A stretch of 64,000 nucleotides of DNA. Origin: Ignavibacteriales bacterium. Its GTDB lineage: Bacteria > Bacteroidota > Ignavibacteria > Ignavibacteriales > DAOSCP01. A program made the translations under genes and the position numbers. Location: contig DAOSCP010000002.1 in assembly GCA_035361425.1 (NCBI GenBank), forward strand, positions 65,410-129,409, given 5' to 3'. The notes beneath the pieces were generated by a model. That model saw only the letters and a program-made list of their open reading frames with translations, made no database searches and was not told where the DNA came from. The stretch's first letter is position 1. Every line of letters starts with the position of its first letter. Positions 6,033 through 61,500 of this stretch are shown piece after piece.

Positions 6033-6042
6033 GCAAAAAACG

Positions 6043-30239: not shown

Positions 30240-30253
30240 TTGTATGTTATCAG

Positions 30254-37473: not shown

Positions 37474-37474
37474 T

Positions 37475-39130
37475 ATGAAAAATATCATTAAATACATAGT
37501 TTTAGTAATTATTTTTAATAGTTTATATGGTCAAGGTAATAATATTGATTACCTTGACTTAATGAATTTTAAATTTATTAATGAGTATAGAAAAGAAATC
37601 AATTATTTAAATGTGTATTTTGTTGAATTTAAAGATACTTTAGCAGGAATAAAATATCTTGCAAGAGAGGATGGTTCTAGACTAATCTTAAAAAAATCTA
37701 AAGATACTGTAAAAACATACCAGATATATTATATAAAAAATGGTGTAGGATTAGAGCCGATTACTCCAATTTATATATCAATGTTTGCGACATATCAAGC
37801 ACCAAAAACAGGACAAAGTCGTCAACTTATTGGTTCTGCAAAAAAAACAGAACGAGCAAAAGTAGATACTTTTATAGTGTATAATCCTAATGACTTTTTA
37901 TATCTTAAGAATTCTAGTAATAAGACAAATAAAGATAATTATAGTGTAATTCTTAATTATATTAATGAACAAATAAATCCTTCAAAATTATTAAAAAAAG
38001 GTGCACCTCAGAAAAAAGAAAAGCAATTATTAAATCTTCCATTAAATTATAGTAATAATATGATGTTTCAAGCATATGTATCGCCTGATAATGCTGATCA
38101 ATTAAATAATATTATTACTAATGGATATCATAAACTAATTAGTTATGATAGAATTACAACAAATTTGCAGGCAAATAATGAAGAAAATCAAGAAATAGAT
38201 ACTGCAAATGTTTCTTCGAGTAATGAATGGTTAGATTTCTTTAAAATAGTATATTCAGATTTATCATTTTCAAAACAAACTATTTGTATTAATGGTATAA
38301 GTAATTTATTTAGTTTGGGAATAGCAAAAGTGGGATTTGAAAGTAGTTTTGATGATAGAGTTTTAAGTTATCTACCTATGGAAGCACCATATCATCATTA
38401 TGGCGTTAATATGTTTTTTAATATGACGGGCAATTTAGAAGATGTGCAAAAAAGTTTTTTTGGTAATGTTAGGTTATTAATAAGGCATAGATATAATTCT
38501 GCAAATAATTTCTATTGGTTACCAATATTTGAAGTTAAACAACCAAAATTGAATGTAAATACAGGTTTTACAGTTGAAGGAGAATTCAGCAAAGGGTTTA
38601 TATCAAATATAATGAAAAATTTGCCGGTATTTACATTTTATTATTCAGTTGGTGCATCTAAAATGCCAAAACCTTATTACCAAATTTATGATACCGGTTC
38701 TGTATTTCCAAGATATTATTACAATAGAAATCAGTGGGAATATGGAATGTCGTTTTTCTGGAATACAACTCAAAGCTCACATTATAGATTGGATTTAGGT
38801 GTTGGAGGTTACGATATATATAAATTTGAATATTTCCTTGATACAACTGATATACCTGTTATTTTGAGTACTTCAAGTAGAAAAAATTTTGTACAACCTT
38901 ATATAGCATTAACATATGATGCAATTCCTAATAAAGCAATATTGGGATACAAATTTAAATATTTTGATAGTAGGTTTTCAGTTAAATTATGGACAAGATT
39001 ATTTGAATTATTGGGTTCTGATGTTAGAATAGAAGCTTATATAATAACAAAACCTTTCTACAGAAGTATTTATCAATGGGAAAGTCCAGGTGGATCATTT
39101 GTACAATTAAGGTATAGATATGCATTTTAA
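37475..39130 (+). CDS. Putative outer-membrane beta-barrel protein (hypothetical)
   Basis: Signal peptide ...FNSLYG|QGNN. The sequence is rich in Y/F/N/G with alternating hydrophobicity. The C-terminus ...VQLRYRYAF ends in Phe, the OMP/BAM signature. It starts 1 nt after the previous stop. Confidence 0.5.
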   Translation: MKNIIKYIVLVIIFNSLYGQGNNIDYLDLMNFKFINEYRKEINYLNVYFVEFKDTLAGIKYLAREDGSRLILKKSKDTVKTYQIYYIKNGVGLEPITPIYISMFATYQAPKTGQSRQLIGSAKKTERAKVDTFIVYNPNDFLYLKNSSNKTNKDNYSVILNYINEQINPSKLLKKGAPQKKEKQLLNLPLNYSNNMMFQAYVSPDNADQLNNIITNGYHKLISYDRITTNLQANNEENQEIDTANVSSSNEWLDFFKIVYSDLSFSKQTICINGISNLFSLGIAKVGFESSFDDRVLSYLPMEAPYHHYGVNMFFNMTGNLEDVQKSFFGNVRLLIRHRYNSANNFYWLPIFEVKQPKLNVNTGFTVEGEFSKGFISNIMKNLPVFTFYYSVGASKMPKPYYQIYDTGSVFPRYYYNRNQWEYGMSFFWNTTQSSHYRLDLGVGGYDIYKFEYFLDTTDIPVILSTSSRKNFVQPYIALTYDAIPNKAILGYKFKYFDSRFSVKLWTRLFELLGSDVRIEAYIITKPFYRSIYQWESPGGSFVQLRYRYAF

Positions 39131-40562
39131 GTTCTACATATTAAAGAGTTATCTTATTTTATTATTATTGTTTGATTTTGCTTATTCGCAAAGTGATTAT
39201 GAAAAACAAGCTATTTATAAAAGAATTTATGAAAATTTAGAGTATAGAACGGATGGTTTTAATGATTTGAAAAAGCAATGGTATCTTAATGAACCTATGA
39301 TTATAAGACAGATTTATAATAACTTAGTTTTAAATGGATTTTTATTACATAACGGACATCCAATAACAAATGAAGATACATTAAAACTTTTTTCTAATAA
39401 ATTTTATAATTCAAGGGTTTTGGTAAAATTACGTCAAAGATATTATGATGATGAAATAGAAAGAATGGAATTTATATTAGAAAATGAAAACCCAGGAATA
39501 GATACTGCTAGATTTATCGATCCTATTAAAGACTGGGTTTTAGTTAGAGAGGCAGTTGGGGATTCTTTATATGAGGTATTAAAAAAGAAAAAATATACTT
39601 ACACAAATTTAACAAAGGATTATTTTCAACATTATAATTTATACTTTTACGATTTGTATTTTTCGGCAATTAATCCATCGTTAATGTTTTGGGCAAGTAC
39701 GTCTGAGGCAAATACTCAATTTGATAGTGAAAGTCCATTTAATAAGTTTAATAGAGCAGATAAATATACGATGTCTTTTTTTGGGAAATGGGGAGTAGAT
39801 CAACTTTCTAAACCTGGGTGGTATTTTTCCGATTATATAGTAGGGTTAAAAATCCTTCATTTGGATATGTTGGTTAATGATCCTGATGATTTTGAATATG
39901 GGCTATATTTAGGCTTTAATTTCGGTGTAAAAGATGTTTTAGTTGAAAATTCATCATTTTTTAAACCTCGTAGAATTGATAGTAAAACCAGTAATATGTA
40001 CATAAAGGCTGCATTTAATCCTTTTACATTGCTTGGTTACGATTGGAGATATTTTAATTTAGGAGTTGAATCTTTCTATAATATAAAGGATAAACCTGTA
40101 ACTGAAGATGATATTAAAATATTACAAGAAACAGGTGCAGATTATATTTATTCACATACAATTAAAAACTTTACCACAATATATGCACAGCAAAAATATT
40201 TAACGGATGTTCTTGGTTTAGGTTATTTATTTTTAGGTATGGGGATAACATTCCATAATTATTCTTTACTGACAGCTACTGTTGATGATTCTGAATTTCA
40301 AGTTTTTGAAAATACTAAATATACAGTTCCAAGTTTTGAAATAGGATTGACTAAAAGTGGGGGGCTAATTTATAGTGAAACAATTTTTCAGTTGAATTAT
40401 AATAGTAAAGCTAAATTTGGTTTTTGGGGTATAAAATTACATATGCTAATTAGAAATAGTATTGGGTTTGATATTAAATATTTTAAGGGTTTTAGAAATG
40501 TTCCAGGTTGGCACCAAGATTCGTATTTTGTTATTAGTCCAATCATCAGGATCAATTTTTAG
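39120..40562 (+). CDS. Putative outer-membrane beta-barrel protein (hypothetical, second)
   Basis: Signal peptide ...LFDFAYS|QSDY and C-terminus ...SPIIRINF, with a terminal Phe. It overlaps the previous gene by 11 nt and ends 8 nt before the giant ORF. Confidence 0.5.
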   Translation: MHFKFYILKSYLILLLLFDFAYSQSDYEKQAIYKRIYENLEYRTDGFNDLKKQWYLNEPMIIRQIYNNLVLNGFLLHNGHPITNEDTLKLFSNKFYNSRVLVKLRQRYYDDEIERMEFILENENPGIDTARFIDPIKDWVLVREAVGDSLYEVLKKKKYTYTNLTKDYFQHYNLYFYDLYFSAINPSLMFWASTSEANTQFDSESPFNKFNRADKYTMSFFGKWGVDQLSKPGWYFSDYIVGLKILHLDMLVNDPDDFEYGLYLGFNFGVKDVLVENSSFFKPRRIDSKTSNMYIKAAFNPFTLLGYDWRYFNLGVESFYNIKDKPVTEDDIKILQETGADYIYSHTIKNFTTIYAQQKYLTDVLGLGYLFLGMGITFHNYSLLTATVDDSEFQVFENTKYTVPSFEIGLTKSGGLIYSETIFQLNYNSKAKFGFWGIKLHMLIRNSIGFDIKYFKGFRNVPGWHQDSYFVISPIIRINF

Positions 40563-40570
40563 GGGTAGTT

Positions 40571-43500
40571 ATGTTAACAAATTATAAACAATTTTGGGTA
40601 TATTTATTATTTATATTGTTTGTAAGTAGTACAAATGTTTACTCACAAACAATATCAATATCAAGTCCAGTTGCAAATGATACATTAAATTATGGAAGTA
40701 GCAAAACAATTACCTGGAATTGGACGGGTGCAAATGGTACTGCTAAAATAGAATATTCAACAAATAGTGGTACAAGTTGGATAAATATAAATTCCAATGT
40801 TACTAACAATAACGGTAGCAATACATATAATTGGAGTGTTCCTAACAATCCTTCCAATAATTGTAGAATAAGAATCACTAGTATTGATTATCCTGCAATA
40901 TCGCAAACCTCTGGTTTGTTTGTAATTAGAAGTTTGGTATTGTTATCACCATCATCTGGAAATCATATCCAAGCAGGAAAGACTTTTAATATTCAATGGA
41001 CAAGTTCGTATGTATCATCACTGAGATTAGAATATTCAACTGATAATGGTAATAATTGGAATTTGATACAAACTGGAGTAAATCCAACAGCTTCACCATA
41101 TGTATGGAATGTTCCGGATATAGTTTCAGATCAGGCGATAGTAAGAGTAAGCGACGCAACAAAGTCAATAACAAATACAAATTGTATTAAATCCCAAAGT
41201 GGAAGTTTTTATATTTGTAAATTAAGATTATTAGCACCTAATGGTGGTGAATTTTTATTTTCCAATTCAAATTATAATATACAATGGACCGCATCTAATA
41301 ATGTTTCTTTTGTAAATTTGGAGTATTCAACAGATAACGGTGGCAATTGGTATACTATTGCAAATAATTTGTCAGCATCAAGTGGGTCATATACATGGAT
41401 GGTAACAAATAATACATCAAATAATCAAGCATTAATAAGAGTATCAGATGCGAGTTATCCAAATTATGTTAATGATATTTCAGATAATAATTTTACAATT
41501 GGTAGATTACTAGTAACATCACCAAATGGAGGATTAGCCGCTGGATATTTGTCTGGTAGTACAATAACAATTACATGGTCTTCACAAAATATTTCTTTGG
41601 TAAATATTTATTATACTATTGATGGAACTTCTTATACTCCCATTGTTACAAATTATGATGCTACAAATGGCTTTTATAATTGGACTATTCCAGCTGGAAT
41701 TAATACAAATAAATTTAAAATAAAAATTGAAGATGCAAGTAATTCATCAAGATATGATGAGTCTGATTATTACTCTGTTATAAGCACAATTTCATTGAGT
41801 TCTATCTCAGCTAATATCCAAACAGGGAAAACCATAACATTAAATTGGGCAGCTGGTTCTTATTTATCCAATGTTAATATTTCATATTCAACAGATAATG
41901 GTAATTCATTCCCATACACAATAGCAACTAATATAAGTGCATCAACCGGTACTTATAATTGGGTAGTGCCGTCAGGAATTACAGGAGATAATTGTAAAAT
42001 TAAAATAACGTCAACACAATATCCTGATATTTATGCAATTAGTAATACATTTAAAATTGCAGAGTTGAATTTAACTTATCCCTTAGGAACAGATGGTTGG
42101 ATAGCAGGGGGTACTTATACTATAATGTGGAACAAATCGACAAATGTGGCAAATGTAAAAGTATATATATCTACTAATAATGGTAATACATGGGGTTCAC
42201 CACTTACAACGACATCATCCAATAGTTATGTATATACTGTTAATTCCGGCTTTGATTTTAATCAGTTTAAGGTAAAAGTTGAAGATGCTACTACAACAGA
42301 TATTTATTCTGAGACACCAATAGGATTTAAAGTCGGAAAGATAAATATTCTAAGTCCATCAACATCTGGAGAAGTATGGAATAGTGGAACGGTTAAAACA
42401 ATTTCATGGACCGCTACTACATTTATAAATATTGTTAGGCTTGAATATTCAACAAACGGTGGATTAGATTGGACTTTTATAGCAAATGTTGGAGCTACAG
42501 TTGGTAGTTATAATTGGACAGTTCCAAGTGTTTCATCCAATAACTGTGTTATAAGAATAAGTGACTCAGATGTGCCGACAATATTTGCTACATCTAATAC
42601 ATTTTCGATAGGAAATCTTATTGTAACATATCCAGACGGTGGAGAAGGATTAAATGCAAATTCTAATGTGAATATTCAATGGACGGCAAACGGAATAGCA
42701 AATGTTAATATTTATTATAGTTTAAATAATGGTGCAAATTGGATTAAAATTGCTTCAAATATTAATGCAGCAAGTGGAAGTTATACGTGGCTATTACCTG
42801 ATGTTGTTTCATCGCAATGCTTAGTTAGAGTAAGCGACGCTAATGATACCACTTATTATGATAATAGCAATGGAGCTTTTCGAATTGGTAAAATTTCTAT
42901 TATTCAACCAACAACGAATAAAATAAATCAAGGTAGTGTATATACTATTAAATGGAACGCAACATCCAATATTTCAAATGTTAATATATACTATTCAGAA
43001 AATAATGGTGCAAGCTGGAATTTAATTCAGAATAATGTTAATGCATCTTTAGGGCAGTATAATTGGAATGTACCATTTACAACAACAAGCCAAGGTAAAA
43101 TCAGAATTGAAGATGCACAAACAAATTCGCTAATTACTGCTACAAATAGTGGTAATTTTTCCATTTCATATATTACAGTAAATACTCCTAATGGAGGAGA
43201 AAATTGGTTTTCTACAAGTACACAAAATATTACGTGGACATCGAGTGCTGATGTAAGTAATGTTAAAATTTATGTATCGACTGATGGTGTTACATTTGGT
43301 TCAACGCCAATTTACAACGGACCAAATACAGGTAGTTATTCATGGGTTGTAGATGGAAATTATATTTCTACTACTGCAAGAATAAAAATTGTTGATGCAA
43401 GTGCTTCTAATGTATCTGACTCTTCTAATAATGTTTTTACAATAACACCACTACAATTAACAGCTCCCAACAATCCAATCACTTTGTATCAAGGGCAAAG

Positions 43501-46500
43501 TTATAATATCACATATGATTATGATGCAACAAAAGTAAGTAGCGTCAAAATTGAATTCTCATCTACTGGAGGTAATAGCTGGACCAATATTGTTGCTTCT
43601 ATACCAGCAACAGGAGTTTATAATTGGACAGTTCCAGCTGTTACGACAAATAATGGTTTAATACGTATTACTTCAAATGATAATCCAGCATTTTATGATG
43701 TAAGTGATAATACATTTTCAATTAATACAATATCATTGACCAGTCCTAACGGTAACGAAAATTGGATGGCAGGAACAACGAAAAATATTACTTGGGTTAA
43801 TATTCCAGGAGTAAGTGCATTAAATTTGTATTATTCTTTAGATGGGGGTAATAGCTGGAGATTATTTAAAACAGGAATAAATGCTGGTGCACAAACATAC
43901 AGCTGGGTTGTTCCTGATTCAGCATCAAATATGGTTAGAATAAAAATTGCAGCTTCTGATAATCCTGCAATATCAGATATAAGTGATAATAATTTTACGA
44001 TAAGTTCATTAACATTATTATCACCTTTAGGTGGTGAAAAACTATTAGCAGGACAACAACATTATATTACATGGGATGCACAATATATTCAAAGTGTAAA
44101 AATAGAATTAACTACAAATGGTGGATCAACCTGGATATCTCCAGAAATAGCAACCGGTGTACCAGGAGCTAATGGTACTTATTTGTGGACTATACCAAAT
44201 AATCCAACAACACAAGCAAGAATTAGAATAACAAGTGATAATCCCAATGACAATACTATTACGAAAACTTCACCTGCTAATTTTACAATAAGTAGGTTAC
44301 AAATAACAAATCCTATTTCTACTACTGCATTTCAGGAAGGGCAAACTGCCACCATTCAATGGACTGCGGATAATATTGATTTTGTTAATATAGATATTAG
44401 TACAAATGGTGGTATAGAGTGGAATAACATTGCAACAGGTTATCCAGCATTAGGAGGAAGCTATAACTGGACAGTTCCAATAAATTATTCATCAAATAAT
44501 TGCATTATAAGGATATATGATCAATCAAATTTTGTAAGAATTGCAACATCGCAAACATTTAATATATCTAAGCTAAATATAACATCACCTACCACAAGTG
44601 ATAAATGGTTTATAGGAAGCACTAAAAAAATACAATGGCAAAGTACCAATGTTAGCTTAGTTAATATTTTATATAGTACAGATGGTGGTGCTACCTGGCC
44701 AATTACAATTGCTTCCAATTATCCAGCAAACGCTGGCTATTATGATTGGCAGGTATCAGGATTAGTAACAACACAGGGTAGAATTAGAATAGTTAGTGTT
44801 GATAAACCTTCGATAACTGCTACAACTGGAAATTTCCAAACTTCAAGTTTAAATATTACACAACCAGCAGGAAATGAAAGCTGGCAAGTTGGGACAAATA
44901 AGAGTATAAATTGGACTTATGGGAATATAACAAGTGTTTATTTATATTATTCTACTGACGGAAGTAATTGGTTACAAATTGGTGCTGGTCCAATTAATGC
45001 TGCATTGCAAACTTATAATTGGACTATTCCAGATATATCAAGCAATACCGTAAGAATTAAAATTGCGGATGCAGCTGATACTTCAAGAAACGCTGTATCT
45101 AATCCATTTAAAATTGGCAAAATTACAGTTTTATATCCTAATGGTAATGAGATTCTTCAATCTGGCAAAACAATTAATATAACCTGGAATAATTATTCAA
45201 GTATATCTAATGTTAAAATAGAATATTCAACAAATGCTGGAGGTTCTTGGAATACGATAGTAAATTCTGTCCAGGCAAATTTAGGAGCATATCCATGGGT
45301 GATACCAAACACAACTGGAAACTCTTATAGAATAAGAATATCAGATGCAGATTCTCCAAGTCCAACAGAATTCATTAATGACATTTCCGATAACAATTTT
45401 ACAGTAAAGAGAATAGATCTAATTTCACCTGTAAGCGGAGAATATTTCCAAATAGGAAAGACCAAACAAATATCATGGAATGTTGGTAATATTGCAACAT
45501 TAAGAATTGATTTATCAACAAATGGTGGCTCCGATTTCTTTAATATAGCTGAAATATCTGGAGCAAATACAAGTTATAATTTAAAACTAACTAATCCAGC
45601 ATATGTATCAACAGCTTGTTATTTAAGAATTTATGATAAAGATAATCCTACAATTGTTTCAGAATTATCAAGTCCATTTACAATCAAAAGACTTGATTTA
45701 ATTTCACCTAATGGAGGTGAGATAAAACAAGCAGGTGTTGTAGATACAATAAAATGGCAAGCAAGTGGAGTAAGTAATATTACTTTACAATATTCAACAG
45801 ATGGGGGATTAAATTTCTCCAATTCTATAGTTAATAATCATCCAGCTAATTTGGGTTATTATTATTGGACAATTCCAAGTAATTTATATGGAAATAATAT
45901 AAAAGTAAGAATTGTTGATTATGATGTTTCCAGTATTTCTGATACAAGTGACAATAATTTTTCAATATCACAATTAGCAATTACTCAACCTACATCAACA
46001 TCTAAATTCAATGTCGGTTTGCCTTTGATAGTTAATTGGAGTGCTAATAATTTAACTCAAATTAATATAGATTTATCTACTGATGGCGGTCTATCCTATC
46101 CTTATAATATAGTAAGTAATTATAATGCAACTTTAAATACTTGTACTTGGGTAATTCCATTAACTTTAACACCATCAAGCAACTGTGTTATCAAGATTAC
46201 AGATGCTAATAATCCTACAACATATATTTTAAGTCAACAATTTTCTATAGCTAAACTTAAAATTTTAGTTCCAAATGATGGTACTCAAAATTGGCAAACA
46301 GTTACTCAACAAACAATAACCTGGCAAGCCTCGTCAAATGTATCAAATATTAGAATTGAATATACTTCAAATAATGGAGTTTCATGGAATACAATTATAA
46401 ATTCCGTACCAGCTACTACTGGTAATTATTTGTGGACAATACCAAATACAGCTGCTTCTAATTTAGTTAAAATTCGAATAACGGATGTTTCCAATAATAA

Positions 46501-49500
46501 TGTAATAGACTCAAGTGATAATAATTTTAATATAAGAAGATTAGATTTAACATCGCCAAATGGTGGGGAAAGCTTTGCTGCTGGTTCATCTCAACAGATT
46601 AGTTGGATAGCTAATAACGTTAATAATGTAAAAATAGAATATCAAACTTCAAATGGTGGTACTTGGACTCATATAGCTACTGTGCCAGCAAATTCTTCTC
46701 CATATACATGGACTGTTCCTGCAACAACATCTAGTGAATATAGAATTAGAATCTCAGACGCAACTTATTCTACTATACAATCTCAAAGTGCAAATACATT
46801 TAAAGTAGGTCAAATAACTGTTACAAGACCAAATACTGCTGAAACATTTCAGGTGGGAAAAACACTTCCTATTAGATGGAATGCATCTTCGAATATTAAT
46901 TTTGTAAATATTGCATTTTCTACAGATAATGGTACTACCTGGTATTATATAGCTAATAATGTTTCTGCAAGTGCAGGTGCATATAATTGGACAATATTGA
47001 ATAAACCTTCAAATAATTGTTTGATAAGAATTACTGATGCAAGTACAGATACAACTGTTAGTGGACATATTAGAGATATAAGTGATGTAGCATTTTCTGT
47101 CAAATACCTAAAGCTCAACATTCCAAATGGTGGTGAAACCTGGAAAATTGGTAGTAATCAAAATATAACATGGGAAACAAGTTCGAATATTTCAAATATT
47201 CATATTTACTTATCAACGAATAGTGGTAATAGTTGGGGTATTACATTAGGCAATAATGTTGGTGCAGGTGCTGGTTCATTTTTGTGGAGTAATATAGGAA
47301 ATTATCCATATTCAACTTGTAAAGTAAAAATTATTGATGCATCAAACAATTCAATTTCTGATAGTAGTGATAATGCTTTCAAGATAGGTAATATTTCTAT
47401 AATTGAACCTGTAGCACTTGCTAATTACAAAACAAACTCACCAATGGTTATTAAATGGACAAGTACATCTAATATTAATACTGTAAATATATATTATTCA
47501 GCAGATGGTGTTAGCTGGAACCAACAAATAGCTTCTAATTTACCAAGCACTACTGGCACTAATGAATTTACCTGGGTTACTCCTTTAACAGCAACAAATA
47601 CAGCAAAAATAAAAATTGTTGATGCGGAAAGTGGTTCAACTATTGAAGAAATATCTTCAACATTTAGAATTACTGACCTAAATATAATATCACCTGTATC
47701 AACTGATAAATGGCAAGTTGGGACATCTAAAAATATAATTTGGAGTGGACAGGGTGTTTCAAATGTAAATATATCTATACTCGATAATAGTAATATTTCG
47801 TACTCTATTGCAACAAATACAAATTTAACAACTTATAACTGGTCTATACCAGATATACCATTTTTCCAAGCACCGTCTTATCGTATTGTTGTAACAGATG
47901 CTTCAAACCCAGATAATTCTGATACAAGTGAAATATTTACAATATGTAAAGTAAAAGTAGATTCACCTAATGGAGGTGAAAATATTTATGCCGGCTCAAC
48001 ATATACAATAAATTGGACTACATATAATGTTACAAATGTAAAGATTGAATATTCCAGCAATAATGGTACTTCGTGGAATACAATAGTTGGAAATATAGCT
48101 TCAAATAATGGAAGTAATTCATATAATTGGCTTGTTCCAAATGATACATCATCAAATTACCGAATTAGAGTGAGTGATTTTTCAAACTCAACAATAAATG
48201 ATATCTCTGATAATAGATTTACAGTTTCAAAAATTACAGTTTTATCACCAAATGGTGGTGAAAATTGGCAAATTGGAACAACCAAAACTATTACATGGCG
48301 TTCAAATGGAATTTCTCAAGTAAATATCTATTTAAATTACGGAGCAGGTAATTTTACAATTGCAACTAATGTTTCATCTGTTGGCGGAAGTGGTTCATAT
48401 AATTGGGCAATCCCAGATAATCCATTATTATATACAACAAACGCAAAAATTATTATATCAAGTAGTACAGATCCAACTAAAGCTGATACAAGTGATAATG
48501 TATTTACAATTAGTAAGTTAGTAGTTATTTCACCAAATGGTAGTGAAAATTGGTTTAAAAATTCTATAAGCACTATAAGTTGGGAAAGTAGAAATATAAG
48601 CTCTGTAAAAATTGAATATAGCACCGATAATGGTATAAATTGGAAAAATATTGCAACAGTTACAAGCGTAAACGGTATAAATAATTATAATTGGTTAGTA
48701 CCTGCTGATACTTCACTGAATTGTATAGTAAGAATATCAAATGCTACAAATTCTACAATTTATGATGTATCGGATAATAAATTTAATATATTGGGATTAT
48801 TCATTACACAACCTATTGCAAATGCAAAATGGCGTAATGGATTATTAAAAACAATTTCATGGCGTGCAAATTATTCAACAAATGTCAACATATATATATT
48901 AACACCTACAGGTAAAAGTTTAATAGCAAGTAATGTTACAGGTAATAGTTGGGGTGGTAATTATACATGGTCTATATTAGATTCAAATAAATATTATACT
49001 AATAGCAATAGAATAATAATTGAAGATTTTGGAGATCCTTCAAGGTGTGATACAACTAATTATTCATTTTCAATTTCTAAACTTCAAATTACAACACCAA
49101 ATACAAATGTAAATTGGTTTGCTGGAAGTAGTAAGATTATAAGTTGGGTATCTCAAAATATTAGTAATGTTGTAATCGAATATTCTTCAAATAATGGCGG
49201 AAGTTGGAGTACAATAACAACTACAACATCAAATAATGGTACTAATAATTATTCATGGACTGTTCCTTCTACAGCAAGTTCACAATGTTTAATAAGAATT
49301 AAAGATGTAGCAGATGGTAATTTACTATCAGATACATCAAACACAACATTTACAATATCAAATTTACAATTGTTGTCGCCATTAAGCAATGCTAGATGGC
49401 AAATGGGAAAAGTAAACACAATTCAGTGGACTGCAAGTAATATAGCCAATGTAAAAATTGAATATTATGATATTGCAACAGCTAATTGGTTGACGATTGC

Positions 49501-52500
49501 AACAGTTTCAGCTTCGTCTGGTGCTTATAACTGGTTGATACCAGCTTTAGGATTAACTCCAAGCGATCAATATAAAATAAGAATATCTGCTGCTGACGAT
49601 CCAACAAAAATGGTTGAATCTGGATTATTTACAATTGGAAATGTACAACTTTCAAACTTTAATGGTGGTGAAGTTGTTCAGGCTGGAAAAGTTGTAACAA
49701 TAAATTGGACAAAAACAAGTTTTGTTAACACTGTTAATTTAAAATATACTACAAATAATGGCACAGATTGGAATACAATTGCGAGTGGTATATCTATAAC
49801 ATCTTATAATTGGAATATACCTAATATTTCATCTAATAATGTTAAAATTTTAGTTGAAGATGCTGTAGCAAATTCACTAATTAAAGATACATCTGATGCA
49901 GTATTTACTATTGCAAGATTAGTTGTAAATGTTCCTAATAATGGTGAAGTTTATCGTGAAGGTACTAAGATAAATATAACCTGGACAGCACAAAATACTA
50001 ATAATTTACGATTAGAATATTCAATTGACCACAGTAATTCATGGAATATAATAGCAAATTCTGTTAATCCAGCTTCTGGTTCATATACATGGACACTTCC
50101 ATACGGCCTTGTTAGTAAATATTTAACAATTAAAGCTTATGATGTTTCTTATCCAACAATAATGGATACAACAGATAATAAAGTTACCGTTGCAAAATTG
50201 TTAATTACAAATCCTGCTGGTGGGGAAACATGGGTTGCTAATGATACTAAGTCGATTTCATGGAATAGTCAATACATACCAGCTTCTACATATACAATCG
50301 AGTATACTACAGATAACGGTGTCAATTGGCAAACAATTGTAACAAATGTTCCGACATCAAATAATAATTATAATTGGGTATTACCATCAACTGCTTTATC
50401 TAATGTAAAAATAAGAATCAGACATAATGATAACTCTAATTTATCTGACACTCTTGATGGAACATTTACAATTGTAGCACCTAAGATTACAGTTACTCAA
50501 CCAAATGGTGGAGAAATTTTACTTAAGGATCAACCATACACAATACAATATACTCGAACACCAGATATTACAAATGTTAATATTTATTCAAGATTAGAAG
50601 GTAAAAAAGGCTGGAGATTATTAGCTGGCAATACTACAGCATTATCTTATAATTGGACTCCAGATACAGCTGGTAACTATAAAATAATAATTGTTGATTT
50701 TAATAATCCTAATGTTGTAGGTGATTCATCAGATGCATTTTGTACTGTTAAACATATACAGGTTACACAGCCTGCAGGTGGTGAAATTTGGCAAGCTGGC
50801 AAACCTTATCAAATAAAATGGGTTACTTCAAATAATATAAATACTGTTCGAATAGAATACTCTACAAATGCAGGTGGTAGCTGGCTACCTATAACTTCAA
50901 GTATTCCAGCAGCTGATCAACAATATAATTGGACAATACCTTATGCATTAGATGGAAAACAAGTTCATATTAAAGTTAGTGATGAATTAGCTAGTTCTGT
51001 TATATATGATATTTCTGATGGTTTTGCTACGATTTCTAATTTGCAAGTTGTATATCCCAATAGTAATACTGACGGTTTAGTAGAAGGTAAATCCTATAAT
51101 ATACAGTGGACTAATTCACCTTCAATTACAAACATTGATATATACTATACAGCAGATGGTGGACCACTTCAAACAATACAGGCAAATGTTCCTGCAGCGG
51201 GAGGACAATATAATTGGACTGTTCCAGTAATTAATTCAGATAATGTGAAGATTGTAATAAAAGATGCATCAAATCCGTTGATTGTTGATAGTTCCGATAA
51301 TGCTTTCAAAGTAGCTTCATTGATGGTTGTTACACCGAATGGAGGAGAAGATTTTAGAATAGGTAGAAATGCAACAATAACATGGTCTAATTCTTCCAAT
51401 ATTTCTGCAGTTAATATTTATTATTCGTTGAATAATGGTACAACCTGGTTTATTGCTGGAGTAAATGTTCCTTCAACAAATTCTGTTAACAATTATACAT
51501 GGAAAGTTCCAAATGTTTTAAGTACTACCAATGCATTAATTAAAATTATTGATGCATCAAATTCTAATATTGAAGATATAGGTGATGCAAACTTTACTAT
51601 AAGTAATCTTGTTGTAACATCTCCTAATGGAGGTGAAAGAATATCTGCAGGTAAAAAATATAATATTACATGGATAGCACAAAATGTTACAACAAACTTA
51701 AGAATTCAATATACACTCAATGGCACTAATTGGCAAGATATAGCAACCGTTCCAGGTACAACAACAAATTATGAATGGAATGTAGCTGCTGATACATCAA
51801 CAGTTAATGCAAAAATAAGGATAATGGATCCTACATTAACAGAGGGTGATACAAGTGATGCTAATTTTACAATTGGCTACATTAAAATATTAAATCCTAT
51901 TGCAGGGAATGTATATCAAACAAATAGAAATATTCAAATTTACTGGCAAGATTCTCCAAATATTGGTAGTGTAAATATCAAGTATCAAGTTGGTACATCT
52001 GTACCTGTAACAATTGTAAGTAATTACGCTTCTCCAACTAATTTATATAATTGGACTGTACCGTTAGATTTAGCACATAATAATCTTAACTTAATAATTT
52101 CTGATATTAACGCAGATGTAACTTTAGCAGATACGATAAAAATCAACACTGTAAAATTACAGTTAACTTCCTTAAATGGTGGGCAAAAAATATTAGCTAA
52201 TAAAGTAACACCTATAACATGGGCAAGTTCAAATTTAACTGGTACAATAAAAATTGAATTATCAACCGATGATGGCTTTAACTGGATAGCTATTCCTGGT
52301 GCAAGTAATGTTTCCGCAGCTGATGGAGTATTTAATTGGTTAGTCAATAATATTACTACCGGGCAAAATAGAATTAGAATTATTAGCAATAATGATAATT
52401 CTATAAGAGACTCTAGTGCATCATTCTTTATTATATCAAGATTGAAAGTAACTGATCCAACATCAATTGCAAATTATAAAGCCGGGACAACTCAAAATCT

Positions 52501-55500
52501 TAAATGGGATAATAGCAGCAATATTGGAAATATAAATATTTATTTTAGTTCCAATAATGGTTCTACCTGGACTAATTTATTTAACAATGTTTCAACAACC
52601 GGGCAAAATAAAAACTGGGTTGTTCCTTATACAACATCAAATCAATGCAGAATTAGAATAGAGGATGCACAATATCCGACAAATGCAGATACTTCTGAAG
52701 CTTTCAGTGTTTATACACCGACTATCACAGTTACAGCACCTAATTTACCAAGCAGAATATTAGTAGGTAAAACTTATAATATTACCTGGAATAGTCAGTT
52801 TGTTACTAACTTTAAAATTGAACTATCAACAAACGGTGGTGTTGATTGGAATCCTATTGTTTTATCTACAACAGGGAATAATTATAATTGGACAATACCA
52901 CAACCTTTCGATACTGTTACATCAAATAATTGTTTAATTAAAATTTCAGATGCAAGTGATAATTCAATATTCGATGTTTCTGATAATCCATTTACAATTT
53001 CATCCTTGAAATTTATTTCTCCTGTAGGCGGTGAAATTGTTCAAGTTGGAAAACATTTTACAATTAGGTGGAATAGCTCACAAATTGATAGAGTAAGAAT
53101 AGATTATTTTGATGGTACATCTTGGACACAAATTATTAATAATATTAGTGCTTCAACAGGTAATTATGTGTGGACTGTCCCAAATATATTTTCATCTGCT
53201 ATTAAATTCCGTTTATATGATGCTGATAATTTATCAAACTATATTGAAAGTAATACAATTTCTACTGCTGATATTGCTGTAATTTATCCTGTAGGTGGTG
53301 AGGTAATACAAACTGGTCAAACAGTTAAAATAAAATGGAATTATCAAAATATTTCAAATGTAAAACTTGAGTATTCATTAGAAAATGGTGCTGAAGGAAC
53401 ATGGAATACAATTGTCAATAGTGTTCCTGCAACTACTGGCTCAACGGGTTATAACTGGACTATTGATACTTCCTTATCTTCAAGGGATTGCCTAATTAGA
53501 ATTTCGGAAGTTGGTAATAGTAATGTTTTTGCAACAAGTTACAGCACATTTAAAATTGGTAATATCGTAGTATTATCACCAAATGGCGGCGAAGTATTTA
53601 AGTCTGGTCAATCATATACTATAAGATGGTATAATAAACCATCAACATCTTCTGTTAAGTTATATTATTCAACAAATAATGGTACAAACTGGAATTTAAT
53701 TACAACAACAACAACGCAGCCTTATGGAGGAAGTTTTGACTGGGTACCATCAATATCTAATTCAAGCCCGAATATGTTAATTAAAGTTGTTGATTCAGAA
53801 GGTGATATAAAAGATTCATCTGATGCAACATTTATCTATAATAATTTAAGGATAGTATCTCCTAATAATGGTGAAATTTTCAGACAAGGAACACCTGTTA
53901 ATATTCAATGGACAAGTAACCTAAATCCAGTAACACTAGAATACAGTACTGATAATGGCCTAAATTGGAATTTAATCGTAAGTGGTAAGAATGGAACAAC
54001 ACATACATGGGTTACACCTACAAACTTGCTTTCAAACAATATAATTATTAAAGTAAAAGATGATAACAATAATCTTATTAATGATACAACTGATAACAGA
54101 ATAAAAGTAATAGAATTTAAGATAACTCAACCTAATGGTTTAGAAACATGGGTTGGTAATAGTGTACAAAAAATCAAAGTTTTACATAAGTTATTACCAT
54201 CAAGTTTAATAAATTTATATTACACTACTAATAATGGTACAAATTGGAATACAATTGCAACAAATATTTCTGCAAATGGAGATAGTACTATTTATAATTG
54301 GTTAGTACCGAAAATATCTTCTAATAATGTAAAAGTAAAAATTGTTGACGCAACAAGAAGTAATATTGCAGATACATCAGATAATGTATTTACAATTACA
54401 AATCCACAAGTAACAGTAATTTCGCCTAACGGTGGTGAAGTATTACCTATAAATAAACCTACAACAATTACATGGACGAAATCTGTAGATGTGGCAAATG
54501 TTAATGTGTACACAAGGTTAGAAAATAAAAGATGGTATAGACCAATTGTATCAGGCTTTGGAGGCACTTCTATATCATGGACACCTGATACAGCAGGCAA
54601 TTATAGAATTATTGTTTGTGATGCTGCTAATCCATCATCTGTAATAGATTCATCAGATGCTTTTGTAAGTGTTTATAAATTAAATATCACATCTCCTAAT
54701 GGCGGCGAAAATTGGATAGAAGGTAAGAGATATAATATAACCTGGAATGCATCAATTAACTTAACAAATGTAAATATAGATTATTCAACAAATGGCGGTT
54801 CGAATTGGATTTCTCTTGTTAATAATATTCCTGCTTCATCTGGTTCATATAGTTGGTTAATTCCTTCAGGTATTACAGGTACAAATACAAAAATTAGAGT
54901 AAGAAGTTCAAATTATGGAAATATAATTAAAGATTCATCCGCAAATTCATTTACAATACATAAGATTAGATTATTAAGTCCAAATTTAGCATCTGATGGT
55001 TTTGTAATTGGAAAACAAATGAATATTAGTTGGGATGTTTCTAACTCAACAATACCAAATATAAAAATTAGTTATCTAACACCACAAACAAGTGGAATTA
55101 TATCTGGTAGTTTTGCAACAACGACAAATTCAGGTTATTTTAGTGTTCCTAATGTATCATCTGATAGTGTTAAAATTATAATTTCAGATGTTCTAAATCC
55201 TAATATTGCAGATACAAGTGATAATTATTTCAAAATTGCACAATTGGTTGTAACATCACCTGTTGGTGGAGAAAATTGGCAAATAAATAGAAGAAGACTA
55301 ATTACATGGAATAATTCATCAAATGTCAATTTTATAAATTTAGAGTACACATTAAATGGTATAACATGGTTTACTATAGCTAATAATGTAAATGCATCTT
55401 TAGGTAGTTATAATTGGTTGGTACCTGATGTTTTAAGTTCAACCAATGCTCTGGTAAGAATAACAGATAATAATAATGTAAATATTAAAGATACATCAGA

Positions 55501-58500
55501 TAATGTATTTGCTATTTTTAGGTTTGATATCACAAGTCCAAATGGTGGAGTAAAAATAGCTGCAGGAAAGAAATATAATATAACATGGAATGCTCAAAAT
55601 GTTTCGTTACCAATGCAATTACAATATACTTTTGATGGTAATAATTGGAATAACATAGCTGGTGTAAATTCTACTGATCAATCATATTTATGGGATGTAC
55701 CAGCAGATACATCAACATCCAATTTAAAAATTAGAATAATTGATGAAATGTCATCATTTGGTGATACATCTGATGCAGCAAATTCAATTGCTTATTCAAA
55801 GATACTTAATCCTGTTTTAACTTCAAATTGGCAAACAGGCAAGGCTTATCCAATTAGATTGCAACTTTCACCAAATGTTAATTTTATAAACTTATTATAT
55901 AGAATTGGCAATAATACACCTGTAAGTATTGCTAACAATATTGAAAGAACTAGCGAATATCAATGGTCAGTTCCTTTAACCTTAGTTTCAAACGATATAA
56001 GAATAATAGTACAAGACGCAAATGCAACAACTACTATTGCTGATACATCAAACATTTTCAATACAAGAAGATTGAATTTAACATCATTTACTGGTGGTGA
56101 AAAAGTAATAGCTGGCAAAACTTATAAAATTACCTGGATAGCTCAAAATCTTGGAAATATTAAAATTGAGTTTTCAAAAGATGGTGGATTAAATTGGGCA
56201 ACAGTAACAGGTGGCGGTAATATTAATTCAGCACTTGGTGAATTTGATTGGGTAGTAAATAACGAAGTAGGCTCACAAAATAAAATAAGACTTGTTAGTT
56301 TAGATTATGGAAATGTCCGAGATTCAAGTGCTACAAACTTTACAATTTCAGAACTCAAAATTACTAATCCAACAGCTGCAAGTAATTTTAAGGGTGGTAC
56401 AACACAAACAATAAGTTGGACAAGTAGTATAGATATAAACAAAGTAAATATTTATTACTCAACAAATAATGGAACAAATTGGATTGTAATAAAATCAAAT
56501 CATGATTATGTAGGGACTTCAGCAAATTATAACTGGATAGTTCCAAATGTTACATCTTCGCAATGTAAAGTTAAAATTGAAGATGCTCAAAATCCAGGTA
56601 ATTATGATACAAGTGCTACATTTAGTATCTATACACCAACAATTACTGTTTTAACACCAAATACTAATATTAGATTACTGGCTACTAAAACATATGCAAT
56701 AACATGGTCAAAGCAATATGTCAATAATGTTAAGTTGGAATATTCAACTAATGGTGGTTCAAGCTGGAAATTAATAGCATCACCACTGGCAGGAACATCT
56801 TATAATTGGACAATACCAAATGATACAACAAATAACGCAAAAATAAAAATTACAGATTTAAGCGATACTACAATTTATGATATGAGCGATGTATCGTTTA
56901 CAATTTCATCAATAAACTTTGTAAGTCCATTAGGCGGTGAAATTGTACAAATTAATAAACCATTTAACATTAGATGGAGATCCGCATATATTGATAAAGT
57001 TAGAATAGATTATACATTAGATGGTACTAATTGGATACAAATTATAAACAATTATGATGCAAATGTAGGTAGTTATGCTTGGAATGTAACTAATTACTCC
57101 ACAACACTTAAATTTAGAATTTATGATGCAGTTAATACTAATAACTTTATAGAAAGCAACAGTATAACATCGGCTAATCTTGTAATTACGCAACCTATAG
57201 GTGGGGAAATTTATCAAAGTGGTAATAATATTAAGATTAAATGGACATCACAAAATATCTCAAATGTAAAACTTGAGTATTCATTAGAAAATGGTGCTGA
57301 AGGAACATGGAATACAATAGTTAACAGTGTTTCTGCAGCTGTTGGTACTACAGGTTATGACTGGTTAGTTGATACTTCAATTTCTACAAGAAGATGTTTA
57401 ATAAGAATTTCTGAAGTTGATAATCCAAATGTAAATGCTACTAATAATTCAGTATTTAAAATAGGTAATATTGTTGTTCTTTCTCCTAATGGCAATGAAG
57501 TAAGACAAAACCAACAAGCCGATACAATTAGATGGTATAATAAACCATCAACATCTTCTGTTAAATTGTATTATTCAACTAATAATGGCGGTAACTGGAC
57601 ATTAATTACAACTGTATCTACAAATCCATATGGTGGTAGTTATATCTGGACACCAAATATATCAAATCCAACAACTAATATGCTCATAAAAGTTGAGGAT
57701 GCTGAAGGAGTTATTAAAGATTCATCTAATACTACTTATACAATGGTTAATCTTGTTTTGGTTTCTCCAAATGGTGGTAATTATTGGCAAGCAGGAACAA
57801 TTCAAAAAATCAAATGGAATGCAACTAACTTAGGAAATATAAGCATTAGATATACAACTAATGACGGTGTAAATTGGAATAATGTTGTTTCTAATATTGC
57901 TTCTACACTCGGAGAATATGATTGGGCAATCCCAACTTATATATCATCTAAAGATTGTAGAATTAAATTAATATCTGTTTCTGATTCTAATAGAATTTAT
58001 TCTATTTCTGCTAATAAATTTAAGATTGGCAAAGTTACTTTAACTACATTTACCGGAAATGAAAAAGTAAAAGTTGGAACATCTCATACTATCAGATGGA
58101 CTAGATCATCTAGTATTGATTTTGTAAATCTTTATTACTTCGATGGTTCTAATTGGCAAACTATAGCAACAAATGTTGATGCTTCTCTTAATAAATATGT
58201 ATGGACAATTCCTAATACTCCTACTGTTAATGCAAGAATAAGAATTTCAGATGCAAATTCTAATTTGAATATTAAAGATTCATCAGGAACAACTTTCAGA
58301 ATTAGTAGAATTTATGTATTACAACCAAATGGAAACGAAAATTATAGAGCAGGTTTAGTTTATCCTATAAATTGGAATGTTAGCAGTGATATAACAAACT
58401 TAAAATTAGAATATACTACAGATGATGGTATCAATTGGTATACAATAACAAGTAATACAAATGCTGCTACAGGAACTTATAATTGGAGAGTACCAGATAC

Positions 58501-61500
58501 TGCATCAACAGGGTATAGAATTAGAATAAGTGATGTTACATTTTCATCTGAAATAGCTGATACATCCGATAATATTTTTACAGTTAAAAGATTAAATTTA
58601 ATTACACCAGATGCATCTACCAATTGGTTAGCAAATACAACTCAGCAAATTAAATGGAATACTGTAGGCGTTTCTCAGATTATTTTGCAATATACAACAA
58701 ATAATGGCAGCACATGGAATAATATTACAACAAATCCTATTAGTGCAAGCACAGGACAATATAATTGGCTAACACCAAATATTTCATCAACTAATGTTAA
58801 AGTAAGAATATATGACTATTCTGTGCCAAATATATCAGATACTTCTGCTTCATTTACTATTTATAAACCTGTTATTTCACTCAATTCACCAAATGGTGGT
58901 GAAAGTTGGGCTGTCGGTTCTACTAAAAATATTACCTGGAATTCTGCATATGTAACAAGATTAAAAATTGAATATTCAACAGATGGTGGGCAGAATTACA
59001 TCTTAATAAACGATAATGTTAATCCAACAACAGGTATATTTAATTGGGTTGTACCTAATACGCCTACAAAATTTGCAAAAATTAGATTAACAGATTATAA
59101 TAATTCTGGAGTTATCGATACATCAGATTCATACTTCAGAATTAAAACACTACAATTAGTAAAACCTAACGGCGCTGAGTATTATCAAGTATTACGTACA
59201 AAACCAATTCAATGGAATGCAGGTGGCATAGACAACATTAGAATCGATTATTCAACTAATAATGGAGCTAATTGGTCTAATTTAACAACAATAAATGCTG
59301 AAAGTGGTATTTATAACTGGAATATCACACCAGCTTTTGCTACAACTAATAATTATAAGATAAGAATTACAGATATTGATGATATATCAATTACCGATGA
59401 ATCCGATAATACATTTAGTGTAAGAAACCTTAGATTGCTAAAACCTGTAGGTAACGAAGCTTATATGTATGATAGTTTAGTTAATATACAATGGACTGCT
59501 AGTGTCAATATACAAAATGTAAAATTACAATATAGAATTTCTGATGCTTCAAGTTGGGTAGATATTACGGGAGCATCTGCTAATTTAGGTGTTTATAATT
59601 CATGGAAAGCGCCTTTATCAGCTTCTAATTTCTATAAAGTTAGAATAATTGATTCTGTATCAAATGAAGTTTATGATTCAACTGCAGCATATTTCAAAGT
59701 AGGTAATATAAATATTACAACTAATTTAACTGGCACTTCAATACAAGTTGGGAAAGAATTAACTATAAATTGGACAAACACAAATAACATTAATACAGTT
59801 AAAATTGAGCTTTCAACTAATGGTGGCTCAGGTTGGTCAACATTAACATCGAATTATGTAACAGGTGCAAATGGTGGTTCATATACATTTACAGTACCAA
59901 ATAATGTTACTAATAATGCAATAATCAAAGTAAGTGATCAAAATAATAGTAATATTTATTCTCAAACTGCTTCATTTACAATTAATAATTTAACTATTAC
60001 AAAACCAATAACGCCTGAAAGCTGGAAAGTAGCTTCCACACAACAAATTAAATGGACAAGTTATAACATATCTAATGTAAATATATATATTTCAACAAAC
60101 AATGGAGCAAATTGGTTATTAATTGATAATAATGTAACTTCAAACAATGGAAACAATGTTTATAATTGGGTTGTTGCAAATTATGCTTCAAATCAATGTT
60201 TAATTAAAATCACTGATGCTGTTGATGAAAATATAGCTAGCACTATTTCACCAAATAACTTTAAAATTGGTGATATTTCTGTTACTTCTCCAACAGCTGG
60301 TGCTAAGTGGCAAGCTGGAATAAATAAGCGAATCCAGTGGACTAATACAACAAATATAACAAATGTAAATATTGAGTATTCATTAAATGGAACAACCTGG
60401 TTACCAATTGCAACTAATATCCCTGCAAGTACTGGATATTACGATTGGAAAGTTGTGGATAATCCATCAACTACAGTTCAAATTAGAGTTACAGATGCAC
60501 AGGGCATAAATATTAATTCTGTATCTCCTGTATTTACGATTGTTAAAATTAAAATGGATTATCCAAATGGTAATGAATTTATTGCTGCTAATTCAAATGT
60601 AATTGTTAAATGGCAAAGTAGTAATATAGTTAATGTATCATTAGATTATTCAACTAATGGCGGTTCAAATTGGTATCCATTAGCTTCCAATCAACCTGCT
60701 GGTATGTTACAAGTAAACTGGACAGTACCTAATTTGTTAACAACTGCTAACAATTGCTTAATTAGAATATATGATAGAAGCGATCCTACTATAGTTGATA
60801 CAACCGATAATCCATTTACTATTGTTGTTCCCAAAATTACAGTATTGAAACCTGATAATTCATCTTATTGGCAAGCAGGAAAAATCAAGAAAATACAATG
60901 GACATCTGAATTTATTAACGATGTTAAGATTGAATTTTCTTCAAACGATGGTAATAGTTGGGTAACAGTTATTAGTTCAATTCCAGCTAATACTAATGAA
61001 TACAACTGGATGATACCATCAGTACCGTCTGATAAATACAAAATTAGAATTAGTGATGTTAACAATTCTGCTTTATGGGATACAAGTAGAGTATTTACCG
61101 TTTCATTGTTGAATATAGTTAGCCCAAATGGTGGCGAAAATATTAAAGTTGGAACTGTTTTACCAATAGTGTTTAATGCATATTATACAGGTAATGTTAA
61201 AATTCAATATTCTACTAATAATGGTAATACATGGGCCAATGATGTTGTAAGTACATTAGGTATAACTAATGGTTCTAACACATATAATTGGACAGTTCCT
61301 AATATTCCTTATGATAATATTAAATTAAGGATATATGCTATTTCCGATACATCAATTAATGATTATACTGATGGTTCATTTAGAGTAGCAAATATTCAAG
61401 TTGTAGTACCAAATGATTCAGTAATCTGGCAAGCTGGTACAATAAAAACTTTACAATGGATAAAATCTAGCAATATTGGAAATGTCAATATTGATTATTC

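What the first reader, a model, noticed from the sequence alone, without database searches (positions are those of the whole stretch)
50478..57750. Higher-order 12-module (~3.4 kb) segmental duplication inside the giant gene
Modules starting at ~50478-53845 are collinear, one for one, with modules at ~54404-57750, an offset of 14 modules. The pairs are much more similar than random module pairs. Two examples: PKITVTQPNGGEIL...YSRLEGKKGWRLL...WTPDTAGNYKIIIVD vs PQVTVISPNGGEVL...YTRLENKRWYRPI...WTPDTAGNYRIIVCD; and LKFISPVGGEIVQVGKHFTIRWNSSQIDRVRIDY vs INFVSPLGGEIVQINKPFNIRWRSAYIDKVRIDY. At nucleotide level there is a 59-nt identical run at 53354-53412 and 57260-57318, an in-frame offset of 3906 nt. 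A second run of ~35 nt is identical around 53626 and 57530 (agatggtataataaaccatcaacatcttctgttaa). So the array grew by block duplication as well as by unit duplication. The identical patches suggest ongoing gene conversion or recombination, which could be a route to length or antigenic variation.
Basis: seen in the sequence. Interest (0 to 1): 0.6.

Follow-up and report, generated by a model that had tools for sequence, protein, structure and literature searches.

The report
Old 14-module duplication in giant gene
A 9,120-residue secreted surface protein of an Ignavibacteriales bacterium, built of 92 bead-like domains, carries an ancient tandem copy of a 14-domain block that still exchanges short DNA patches, and the sister species has lost exactly one such block; this is a clean but ordinary example of how giant repeat proteins change length.

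Summary
The gene (window 40571 to beyond the window end; 9,120 aa in the genome) has 92 Kre9_KNH-like Ig modules and a T9SS sorting tail.

- **Block extent.** In an all-vs-all module matrix the only higher-order diagonal is at offset +14. It covers 14 modules, not 12: 34-47 (49919-53845) against 48-61 (53846-57751). This is an exact tandem duplication with a period of about 3.9 kb.
- **Exact runs.** The 59-nt and 35-nt identical runs are real. They are the two longest exact repeats in the gene.
- **Age.** The duplication is old. Synonymous sites between the blocks are saturated, and trees place it before the split from the sister species.
- **Patches.** The two exact patches are therefore anomalous (none of 5,000 permutations reached them). 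Recent short-tract gene conversion explains them best.
- **Sister species.** Its syntenic orthologue (7,812 aa, three strains) has 78 modules, matching modules 1-42 and 57-92. It lacks exactly one period, and its single block is an A-5'/B-3' chimera. This is the signature of an unequal crossover.
- **Strain level.** No length variation was seen between strains, and nothing supports antigenic variation.

Multi-module duplication is common in related giant proteins and is known from the literature. This is a new member of a known kind.

The parts
40571..64000 (+). Giant gene. It runs off the window and is complete at G000:C2:105980-133342 (9,120 aa). It has a signal-peptide-like N-terminus, 92 Kre9_KNH-like Ig modules, a non-repeat C-terminal region and a T9SS sorting domain.
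   Evidence: Pfam PF10342 scores 78-105 bits. PF18962 tail scores 37.9 bits. The two-module model is all-beta with pLDDT 95.
49919..53845 (+). Block A: modules 34-47 (1,309 aa), the first copy of the 14-module tandem duplication.
53846..57751 (+). Block B: modules 48-61 (1,302 aa), the second copy.
53354..53412 (+). Patch 1, copy in module 46: 59 nt identical to 57260-57318. It encodes SNVKLEYSLENGAEGTWNTI.
57260..57318 (+). Patch 1, copy in module 60.
53624..53658 (+). Patch 2, copy in module 47: 35 nt identical to 57530-57564. It encodes RWYNKPSTSSVK.
57530..57564 (+). Patch 2, copy in module 61.
52390..56301 (+). Approximate stretch with no counterpart in the sister species' orthologue: the end of module 42, modules 43-55, and most of module 56. 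It is one 3,912-nt period at this register.
52382..52400 (+). Position in block A (around aa 3938-3942, ...NRIRII/SNND...) where the sister orthologue switches from A-like to B-like. The matching site in block B is about 56294-56312.
   Evidence: This is amino-acid level only, because the sister's DNA for this part could not be fetched.

Best explanation
The gene encodes a giant beads-on-a-string surface protein exported by the type IX secretion system.

History of the block:
- Long ago a run of 14 consecutive modules (about 3.9 kb) was duplicated in tandem, in register, in the middle of the array. By branch depth this happened about 2 to 2.4 times earlier than the split from the sister species.
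- The most likely mechanism is unequal homologous recombination between modules 14 apart.
- Both copies were kept and then diverged until synonymous sites saturated.

The copies have continued to interact since then:
- In the lineage of this genome, two short tracts (59 and 35 nt, in module pairs 46/60 and 47/61) were recently copied from one block to the other by gene conversion.
- In the sister lineage, an in-register unequal crossover between module 42 of block A and module 56 of block B removed exactly one period. It left a single chimeric block and a protein of 78 modules.

What is shown: the duplication, its extent, its age relative to the species split, the statistical anomaly of the patches, and the 14-module difference with a chimeric block in the orthologue.

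What is inferred: the recombination mechanisms, the direction of the event (loss in the sister rather than gain here), and the role of the protein as an adhesin or fibre.
For: Extent of the duplication:
- Identity matrix and diagonal scan.
- Triplet clades for 12 of 14 positions.

Age of the duplication:
- pS between the blocks is 0.47-0.70, against a background of 0.588 +/- 0.066.
- Orthologues in the sister species have pS 0.60-0.62 and pN 0.19. Block pairs have pN 0.20-0.46.

Concatenated ML trees:
- ((A34-42,S34-42)100,B48-56). Root-to-tip depths from the duplication node are 0.52, 0.52 and 0.51, so block B is not accelerated.
- ((B57-61,S43-47)100,A43-47).

Three-way site patterns:
- Modules 34-42: S=A 243, S=B 61, A=B 65.
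- Modules 43-47: S=B 96, S=A 35, A=B 44.
- Changes on the A branch and the S branch are equal (61 vs 65). This places the duplication at or before the species split.

The orthologue:
- It has 78 modules, collinear with modules 1-42 and 57-92.
- The 7,812-aa length is found in three distinct strain sequences from three contigs.
- Synteny holds on both flanks.
- No loose fragment encoding orthologues of modules 43-56 was found among 5.8 billion proteins.

The patches:
- Permutation test.
- Sharp edges, and both are unique in the genome.
- Module 46 shows an excess of A=B sites over S=A sites (14 vs 5). Modules 43-45 show none (22 vs 25).

Multi-module periodicities are common in related giant proteins: offsets 2, 6, 7 and 10, with runs of up to 27 pairs. 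Multi-domain duplication in the middle of arrays is described as the usual mode of repeat growth (PMC1553488).
Against: - No third species with a collinear orthologue was found, so polarity rests on a three-taxon comparison rooted with paralogous modules.
- The sister's DNA across the junction could not be obtained. The crossover is placed only at amino-acid level.
- Pairs 35/49 and 37/51 are barely above background.
- The patches fold slightly better than their own shuffles (z about -2.7).
Confidence: 0.78

Rival explanations
1. The ancestor had 78 modules, as the sister species does now. The 14-module duplication arose in this genome's lineage just after the split. The 14 internal modules (43-56) then evolved several times faster than their twins.
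For: There is no outgroup. Three-taxon data are formally compatible with this if the duplication happened at 80% or more of the split age and the inner modules ran 2.5-4 times faster. Long-branch attraction could bias the rooted trees.
Against: - Root-to-tip depths in the ML trees are clock-like (0.505 vs 0.52), with no sign of acceleration in block B.
- The accelerated stretch would have to coincide by chance with exactly one 14-module period.
- Block pN is at least the orthologue pN in every pair.
Confidence: 0.08
2. The two identical patches are kept identical by selection on the nucleotide sequence, for example an mRNA hairpin or a binding site. They are not the product of gene conversion.
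For: Both patches fold better than their dinucleotide shuffles (z = -2.73 and -2.74).
Against: - Against all same-length windows of the gene, they sit only at the 9th and 4th percentile of folding energy.
- There is no Rfam match.
- The sequences occur nowhere else in the genome.
- The orthologue has 9 substitutions and a 2-residue indel within the stretches where the two copies have identical protein sequence around the patches, so the stretch is free to change.
- A structure would tolerate compensated changes, yet the two copies show none at all.
Confidence: 0.08
3. This is an assembly artefact. Either the 78-module form arises because assemblers jump across a shared repeat and drop a 3.9-kb loop, or the 92-module form is a chimera.
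For: All sequences come from metagenome assemblies. A second assembly of this species breaks its contig inside module 47, within about 30 nt of the 35-nt patch. The repeats therefore do trouble assemblers.
Against: - Blocks A and B differ at 30-60% of residues, so neither can be a collapsed or invented copy.
- A single path must traverse both blocks.
- The second assembly keeps the same register on both sides of its break, with 13 substitutions and no indels.
- Three different strain sequences give 7,812 aa.
- No orphan fragment encoding the missing 14 modules was found.
Confidence: 0.05

Closest known systems
Multi-domain (super-repeat) tandem duplication in domain-repeat proteins, as surveyed by Bjorklund, Ekman and Elofsson 2006 (PMC1553488), e.g. 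the nebulin seven-domain unit
   Same: Several consecutive homologous domains were duplicated at once, in register, in the middle of the array. The duplication is detected as an off-diagonal in the domain similarity matrix.
   Different: Here the host is a bacterium and there is a single intron-free ORF. The unit is 14 domains, whereas the survey's text mentions up to nine at a time in one example. It is one old duplication rather than a repeated super-repeat.
Repeat-number change and homogenisation by homologous recombination in bacterial surface proteins with tandem repeats (own knowledge: e.g. staphylococcal and streptococcal repeat adhesins)
   Same: In-frame gain or loss of whole repeat units by unequal recombination, and sequence exchange between repeats.
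   Different: Those arrays usually have near-identical repeats and vary between strains. Here the repeats are only about 32% identical, the blocks are saturated at silent sites, and the length difference is fixed between species. It is not seen among the few strains available.
Other giant Kre9_KNH-array T9SS proteins of Ignavibacteriales and of MAGs labelled Bacteroidetes/Bacteroidota, Omnitrophota and others (hits P0004-P0065)
   Same: Same module family and same C-terminal sorting domain. Many show multi-module periodicities at offsets 2, 6, 7 and 10.
   Different: Apart from the sister species, none is collinear with this gene. The 14-module unit is the largest seen in this sample, and it occurs only twice.

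Membership tests
T9SS cargo protein (type A C-terminal sorting domain) | C-terminal Por_Secre_tail domain above the curated cut-off | tested here: met
   PF18962 scores 37.9 bits against a cut-off of 27, at the last 80 residues. The same site is found in the genome scan at C2:133091-133327.
T9SS cargo protein (type A C-terminal sorting domain) | T9SS translocon encoded in the same genome | tested here: met
   SprA (TIGR04189) scores 775 bits on contig C16. The genome has 59 sorting-tail matches. Other T9SS components were not searched.
T9SS cargo protein (type A C-terminal sorting domain) | N-terminal Sec signal peptide | not tested
   The N-terminus MLTNYKQFWVYLLFILFVSSTNVYS/Q looks like a signal peptide by eye. 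No predictor was run.
T9SS cargo protein (type A C-terminal sorting domain) | Secretion and surface attachment demonstrated | not testable with these tools
   This needs an experiment.
Kre9_KNH-like Ig-like domain array (PF10342) | Pfam match above the gathering score and a beta-sandwich fold | tested here: met
   78.4 and 105.5 bits against a cut-off of 24.6. The two-module model has pLDDT 95.2 and is all-beta. The best structural matches are tandem Ig/FN3-like pairs.
Multi-domain tandem (block) duplication | Raised similarity along one fixed off-diagonal, collinear, beyond chance | tested here: met
   At offset 14, modules 34-47 have z up to 6. The top 14 three-pair windows of the whole array all lie on this diagonal.
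Multi-domain tandem (block) duplication | Block length equals the offset (copies abut) | tested here: met
   Modules 34-47 are followed directly by 48-61. Pairs 33/47 and 48/62 are at background.
Multi-domain tandem (block) duplication | Paired modules are each other's closest paralogues in a tree | tested here: met
   Exclusive clades are recovered for 12 of 14 positions. Positions 35 and 37 are unresolved.
Short-tract gene conversion between paralogous repeats | Identity tract longer than expected given flanking divergence and codon usage | tested here: met
   Runs of 59 and 35 nt, against a null longest run of 22.8 +/- 4.6 nt. None of 5,000 permutations reached the observed values.
Short-tract gene conversion between paralogous repeats | Abrupt edges, with ordinary silent-site divergence outside the tract | tested here: met
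   The nucleotide alignment shows this. pS of pairs 46/60 and 47/61 is 0.47 and 0.57.
Short-tract gene conversion between paralogous repeats | Paralogues in one genome closer to each other than to the orthologue of one of them | tested here: inconclusive
   In module 46, A=B sites number 14 and S=A sites 5. In modules 46+47 the counts are 22 and 10 (one-sided p about 0.03). This is amino-acid level only. Donor and recipient were not resolved.
Phase- or antigenic-variation locus | Length or sequence polymorphism between closely related strains | tested here: not met
   Three strains of the sister lineage all have 7,812 aa with no indels. A second assembly of this species is in the same register with 13 substitutions. 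The sample is small, and no read-level data were available.

The most novel reading that the evidence does not exclude
The base-perfect patches are not passive leftovers. They are the only stretches between the two blocks long enough for efficient homologous recombination. Cell populations would therefore carry rare in-frame 78-module and 106-module variants of the surface fibre, with junctions at the patches. Selection would retain this as a length-switching device.
Probability: 0.06. Interest if true: 0.55.

Novelty: new member of a known kind. Interest (0 to 1): 0.3.

Why it matters
Within one gene pair it documents all three steps by which giant bacterial repeat proteins remodel themselves:
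- block duplication;
- short-tract conversion between old copies;
- reciprocal loss of one period in a sister species.

It shows that copies whose silent sites are already saturated can still recombine. It also gives a practical warning. Short exact patches inside diverged repeats break or could mislead short-read assemblies of such genes, so length differences between MAGs need read-level confirmation. It does not reveal a new mechanism or function.

Tried and rejected
- **Sequencing runs.** No read-depth, spanning-read or population check was possible.
- **Sister orthologue DNA.** The look-up of encoding contigs refuses proteins over 5,000 aa. A metagenome-contig scan with the junction peptide confirmed no relative. 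The GTDB representative of the sister species has the gene broken, and its middle part is absent.
- **Outgroup.** Six of the next-ranked giant proteins tested (P0004-P0006, P0010, P0020, P0023) show no collinearity with this gene. A search with modules 43-56 alone found nothing above 36% identity.
- **RNA explanation for the patches.** There is no Rfam hit. Folding is unremarkable against other windows of the gene.
- **Discarded test.** I dropped a test that counted site patterns inside the patches. Within a run where the two copies are identical, the other patterns cannot occur by construction.
- **The repeat finder.** Its output on the whole gene only re-described the module consensus and was not used.
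Full report
**What is there.** The window ends in one very long open frame starting at 40571. In the whole genome it runs to G000:C2:133342 and encodes 9,120 residues without a stop or gap.
- An iterated profile built from one module finds 92 consecutive modules of about 93 residues.
- The modules match Pfam Kre9_KNH (PF10342) well above threshold and carry an Asp-box-like YS.D.G..W motif.
- A two-module AlphaFold model built on an alignment of the gene's own modules is all-beta with pLDDT 95. It resembles tandem Ig/FN3-like pairs.
- The last 80 residues are a T9SS sorting domain. The genome encodes SprA and 59 such tails.
- Named relatives are Ignavibacteriales, Melioribacteraceae or Ignavibacteriaceae MAG proteins called 'T9SS type A sorting domain-containing protein'.
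- The object is therefore a giant beads-on-a-string T9SS surface protein.

**Checking the observation.**
- All-against-all module identity averages 0.322 +/- 0.058. Offset 14 is the only offset with a raised mean.
- Pairs 36/50 to 47/61 score 0.38-0.70. Ten of the 12 are mutual best partners, and the six most similar pairs in the whole array lie here.
- A scan of every diagonal in windows of three pairs puts 14 offset-14 windows at the top and nothing else close.
Pair 34/48 are reciprocal best partners and 35/49 rank 3rd and 5th. In a tree of all 170 modules from this gene and its orthologue, exclusive triplets (A copy, B copy, orthologue) appear for 12 of 14 positions, including 34.
- Pairs 33/47 and 48/62 are at background.
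- The unit is therefore 14 modules and the copies abut: A = 49919-53845 and B = 53846-57751. This is a plain tandem duplication.
- The two exact runs are as stated: 59 nt at 53354/57260 and 35 nt at 53624/57530, both at an offset of 3906 nt. They are the two longest exact repeats in the gene, and the next is 25 nt.

**Age of the duplication.**
- Nei-Gojobori proportions for the 14 pairs give pS 0.47-0.70. Unrelated module pairs give the same (0.588 +/- 0.066). Only pN is lowered, at 0.20-0.46 against 0.47.
- At residues identical in both copies, 61% of codons are identical. The same value is seen between orthologues of the two species.
- The duplication is therefore old enough for silent sites to be saturated.

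**The patches.**
- Against that background the exact runs stand out. I kept the amino-acid alignment fixed and shuffled synonymous codons among identical residues.
- The longest run averages 22.8 +/- 4.6 nt (maximum 47 in 5,000 trials). The second-longest never reaches 35.
- The nucleotide alignment shows third-position differences resuming immediately at the patch edges. Neither patch occurs elsewhere in the genome.
- No Rfam family matches.
- The patches fold better than their own shuffles (z about -2.7). Among all same-length windows of the gene they are only at the 9th and 4th percentile.
- Recent short-tract gene conversion is the best explanation.

**The orthologue.**
- A search of 5.8 billion proteins with the block region returned one collinear relative, P0001 (7,812 aa), and two pieces of a second assembly of this same species.
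- P0001 is 100% identical to the two gene fragments present in the same-genus genome G001. The flanking genes of G001 match the window's on both sides, in order, at 68-81% identity upstream and 72-76% downstream (tblastx).
- P0001 has 78 modules. They match this gene's modules 1-42 and then 57-92, one for one, at 0.56-0.84 identity. The deficit is 1,308 residues, which is exactly one period.
- Two further full-length sequences of 7,812 aa from other contigs differ from P0001 by 46 and 86 substitutions and no indels.
- The second assembly of this species covers residues 1-4373 and 4402-9120 with 13 substitutions and no indels. Its contig break falls inside module 47, close to the 35-nt patch.

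**Direction of the event.**
- A three-way alignment of block A, block B and the orthologue's single block S gives these site counts:

| Modules | S=A | S=B | A=B |
|---|---|---|---|
| 34-42 | 243 | 61 | 65 |
| 43-47 | 35 | 96 | 44 |

- The switch lies at the C-terminal end of module 42/56 (...NRIRII | ..DY..VRDSS). This is about window 52382-52400 in A and 56294-56312 in B.
- S is therefore a chimera of the 5' part of A and the 3' part of B, which is what an in-register unequal crossover leaves behind.
- Changes assigned to the A branch and to the S branch are equal (61 vs 65). The A/B split is therefore not younger than the species split.
- Concatenated ML trees rooted with other runs of modules give ((A,S)100,B) for positions 34-42, with depths of 0.52, 0.52 and 0.51 from the duplication node. 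They give ((B,S)100,A) for positions 43-47.
- The clock-like depths argue against the alternative of a post-split duplication here followed by faster evolution of the inner 14 modules.
- Relative to orthologue depth, the duplication is about 2.0-2.4 times as old as the species split in both halves.
- No third collinear species was found, so this polarity is strongly favoured but not proven.

**Orthologue evidence on conversion.**
- Inside the 27- and 22-residue runs where A and B are identical, S differs at 6 and 3 residues and lacks a 2-residue insertion (ENGAEGTW against DNGITW). These stretches are therefore free to evolve.
- In module 46, A=B sites outnumber S=A sites 14 to 5. In modules 46+47 the counts are 22 to 10. 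In modules 43-45 they are balanced at 22 to 25. This is modest support for exchange between A and B after the species split.
- Donor and recipient cannot be told apart.

**Context.**
- Of 62 other giant proteins of this family, many show multi-module periodicity. Offset 2 is frequent. Offset 7 gives runs of up to 24 pairs, offset 10 a run of 27 pairs and offset 6 a run of 8 pairs.
- Bjorklund et al. 2006 (PMC1553488) concluded that domain repeats usually grow by duplicating several domains at once in the middle of the array.
- The present case is therefore a well-resolved bacterial example of a known process.
- Nothing here points to rapid or antigenic variation, because length is constant among the few strains available.

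**Limits.**
- All sequences are metagenome assemblies.
- The sister's DNA across the junction could not be fetched.

Noticed in passing
window 22392-22894: The MCP gene contains a 273-nt tandem duplication whose copies share a 230-nt stretch at 87% identity. This may be a second case of exchange between old tandem copies in the same genome.
   Followed up: partly
window 53659-53775 (module 47): A second assembly of the same species (P0003 ends at aa 4373, P0002 starts at aa 4402) breaks its contig about 30 nt after the 35-nt exact patch. Short exact patches inside diverged repeats are enough to fragment short-read assemblies of this gene.
   Followed up: partly
G001:C33 end and G001:C18 start (loci L011, L012): In the GTDB representative of the sister species the giant gene is cut at residues 1627 and 6368, and the 14-kb middle is missing from the bin. 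Its true architecture is visible only in other assemblies (P0001, P0096, P0100).
   Followed up: yes
proteins P0023, P0051, P0049, P0048 (relatives from other MAGs): Other giant Kre9_KNH-array proteins have strong, much younger super-repeats. P0023 has period 7 (24 consecutive pairs, mean identity 0.75). P0051 has period 10 (27 pairs, 0.81, some modules 100% identical). P0049 has period 6.
   Followed up: partly
window 40571-64000, every module: Each module carries an Asp-box-like motif (YS.D.G..W). This causes weak sub-threshold matches to the BNR family and, by sequence, to the solved reelin structures. The Pfam Reelin subrepeat-B match is above its gathering cut-off for the whole protein (42-51 bits against 27), but no single stretch passes on its own.
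   Followed up: no
window 28397-32981 and 32995-35031: Upstream lie a MoxR/DUF58/vWA (Bat-like) operon and an alpha-amylase/CBM48 gene. The three genes directly in front of the giant gene (36370-40562) have no Pfam match.
   Followed up: no
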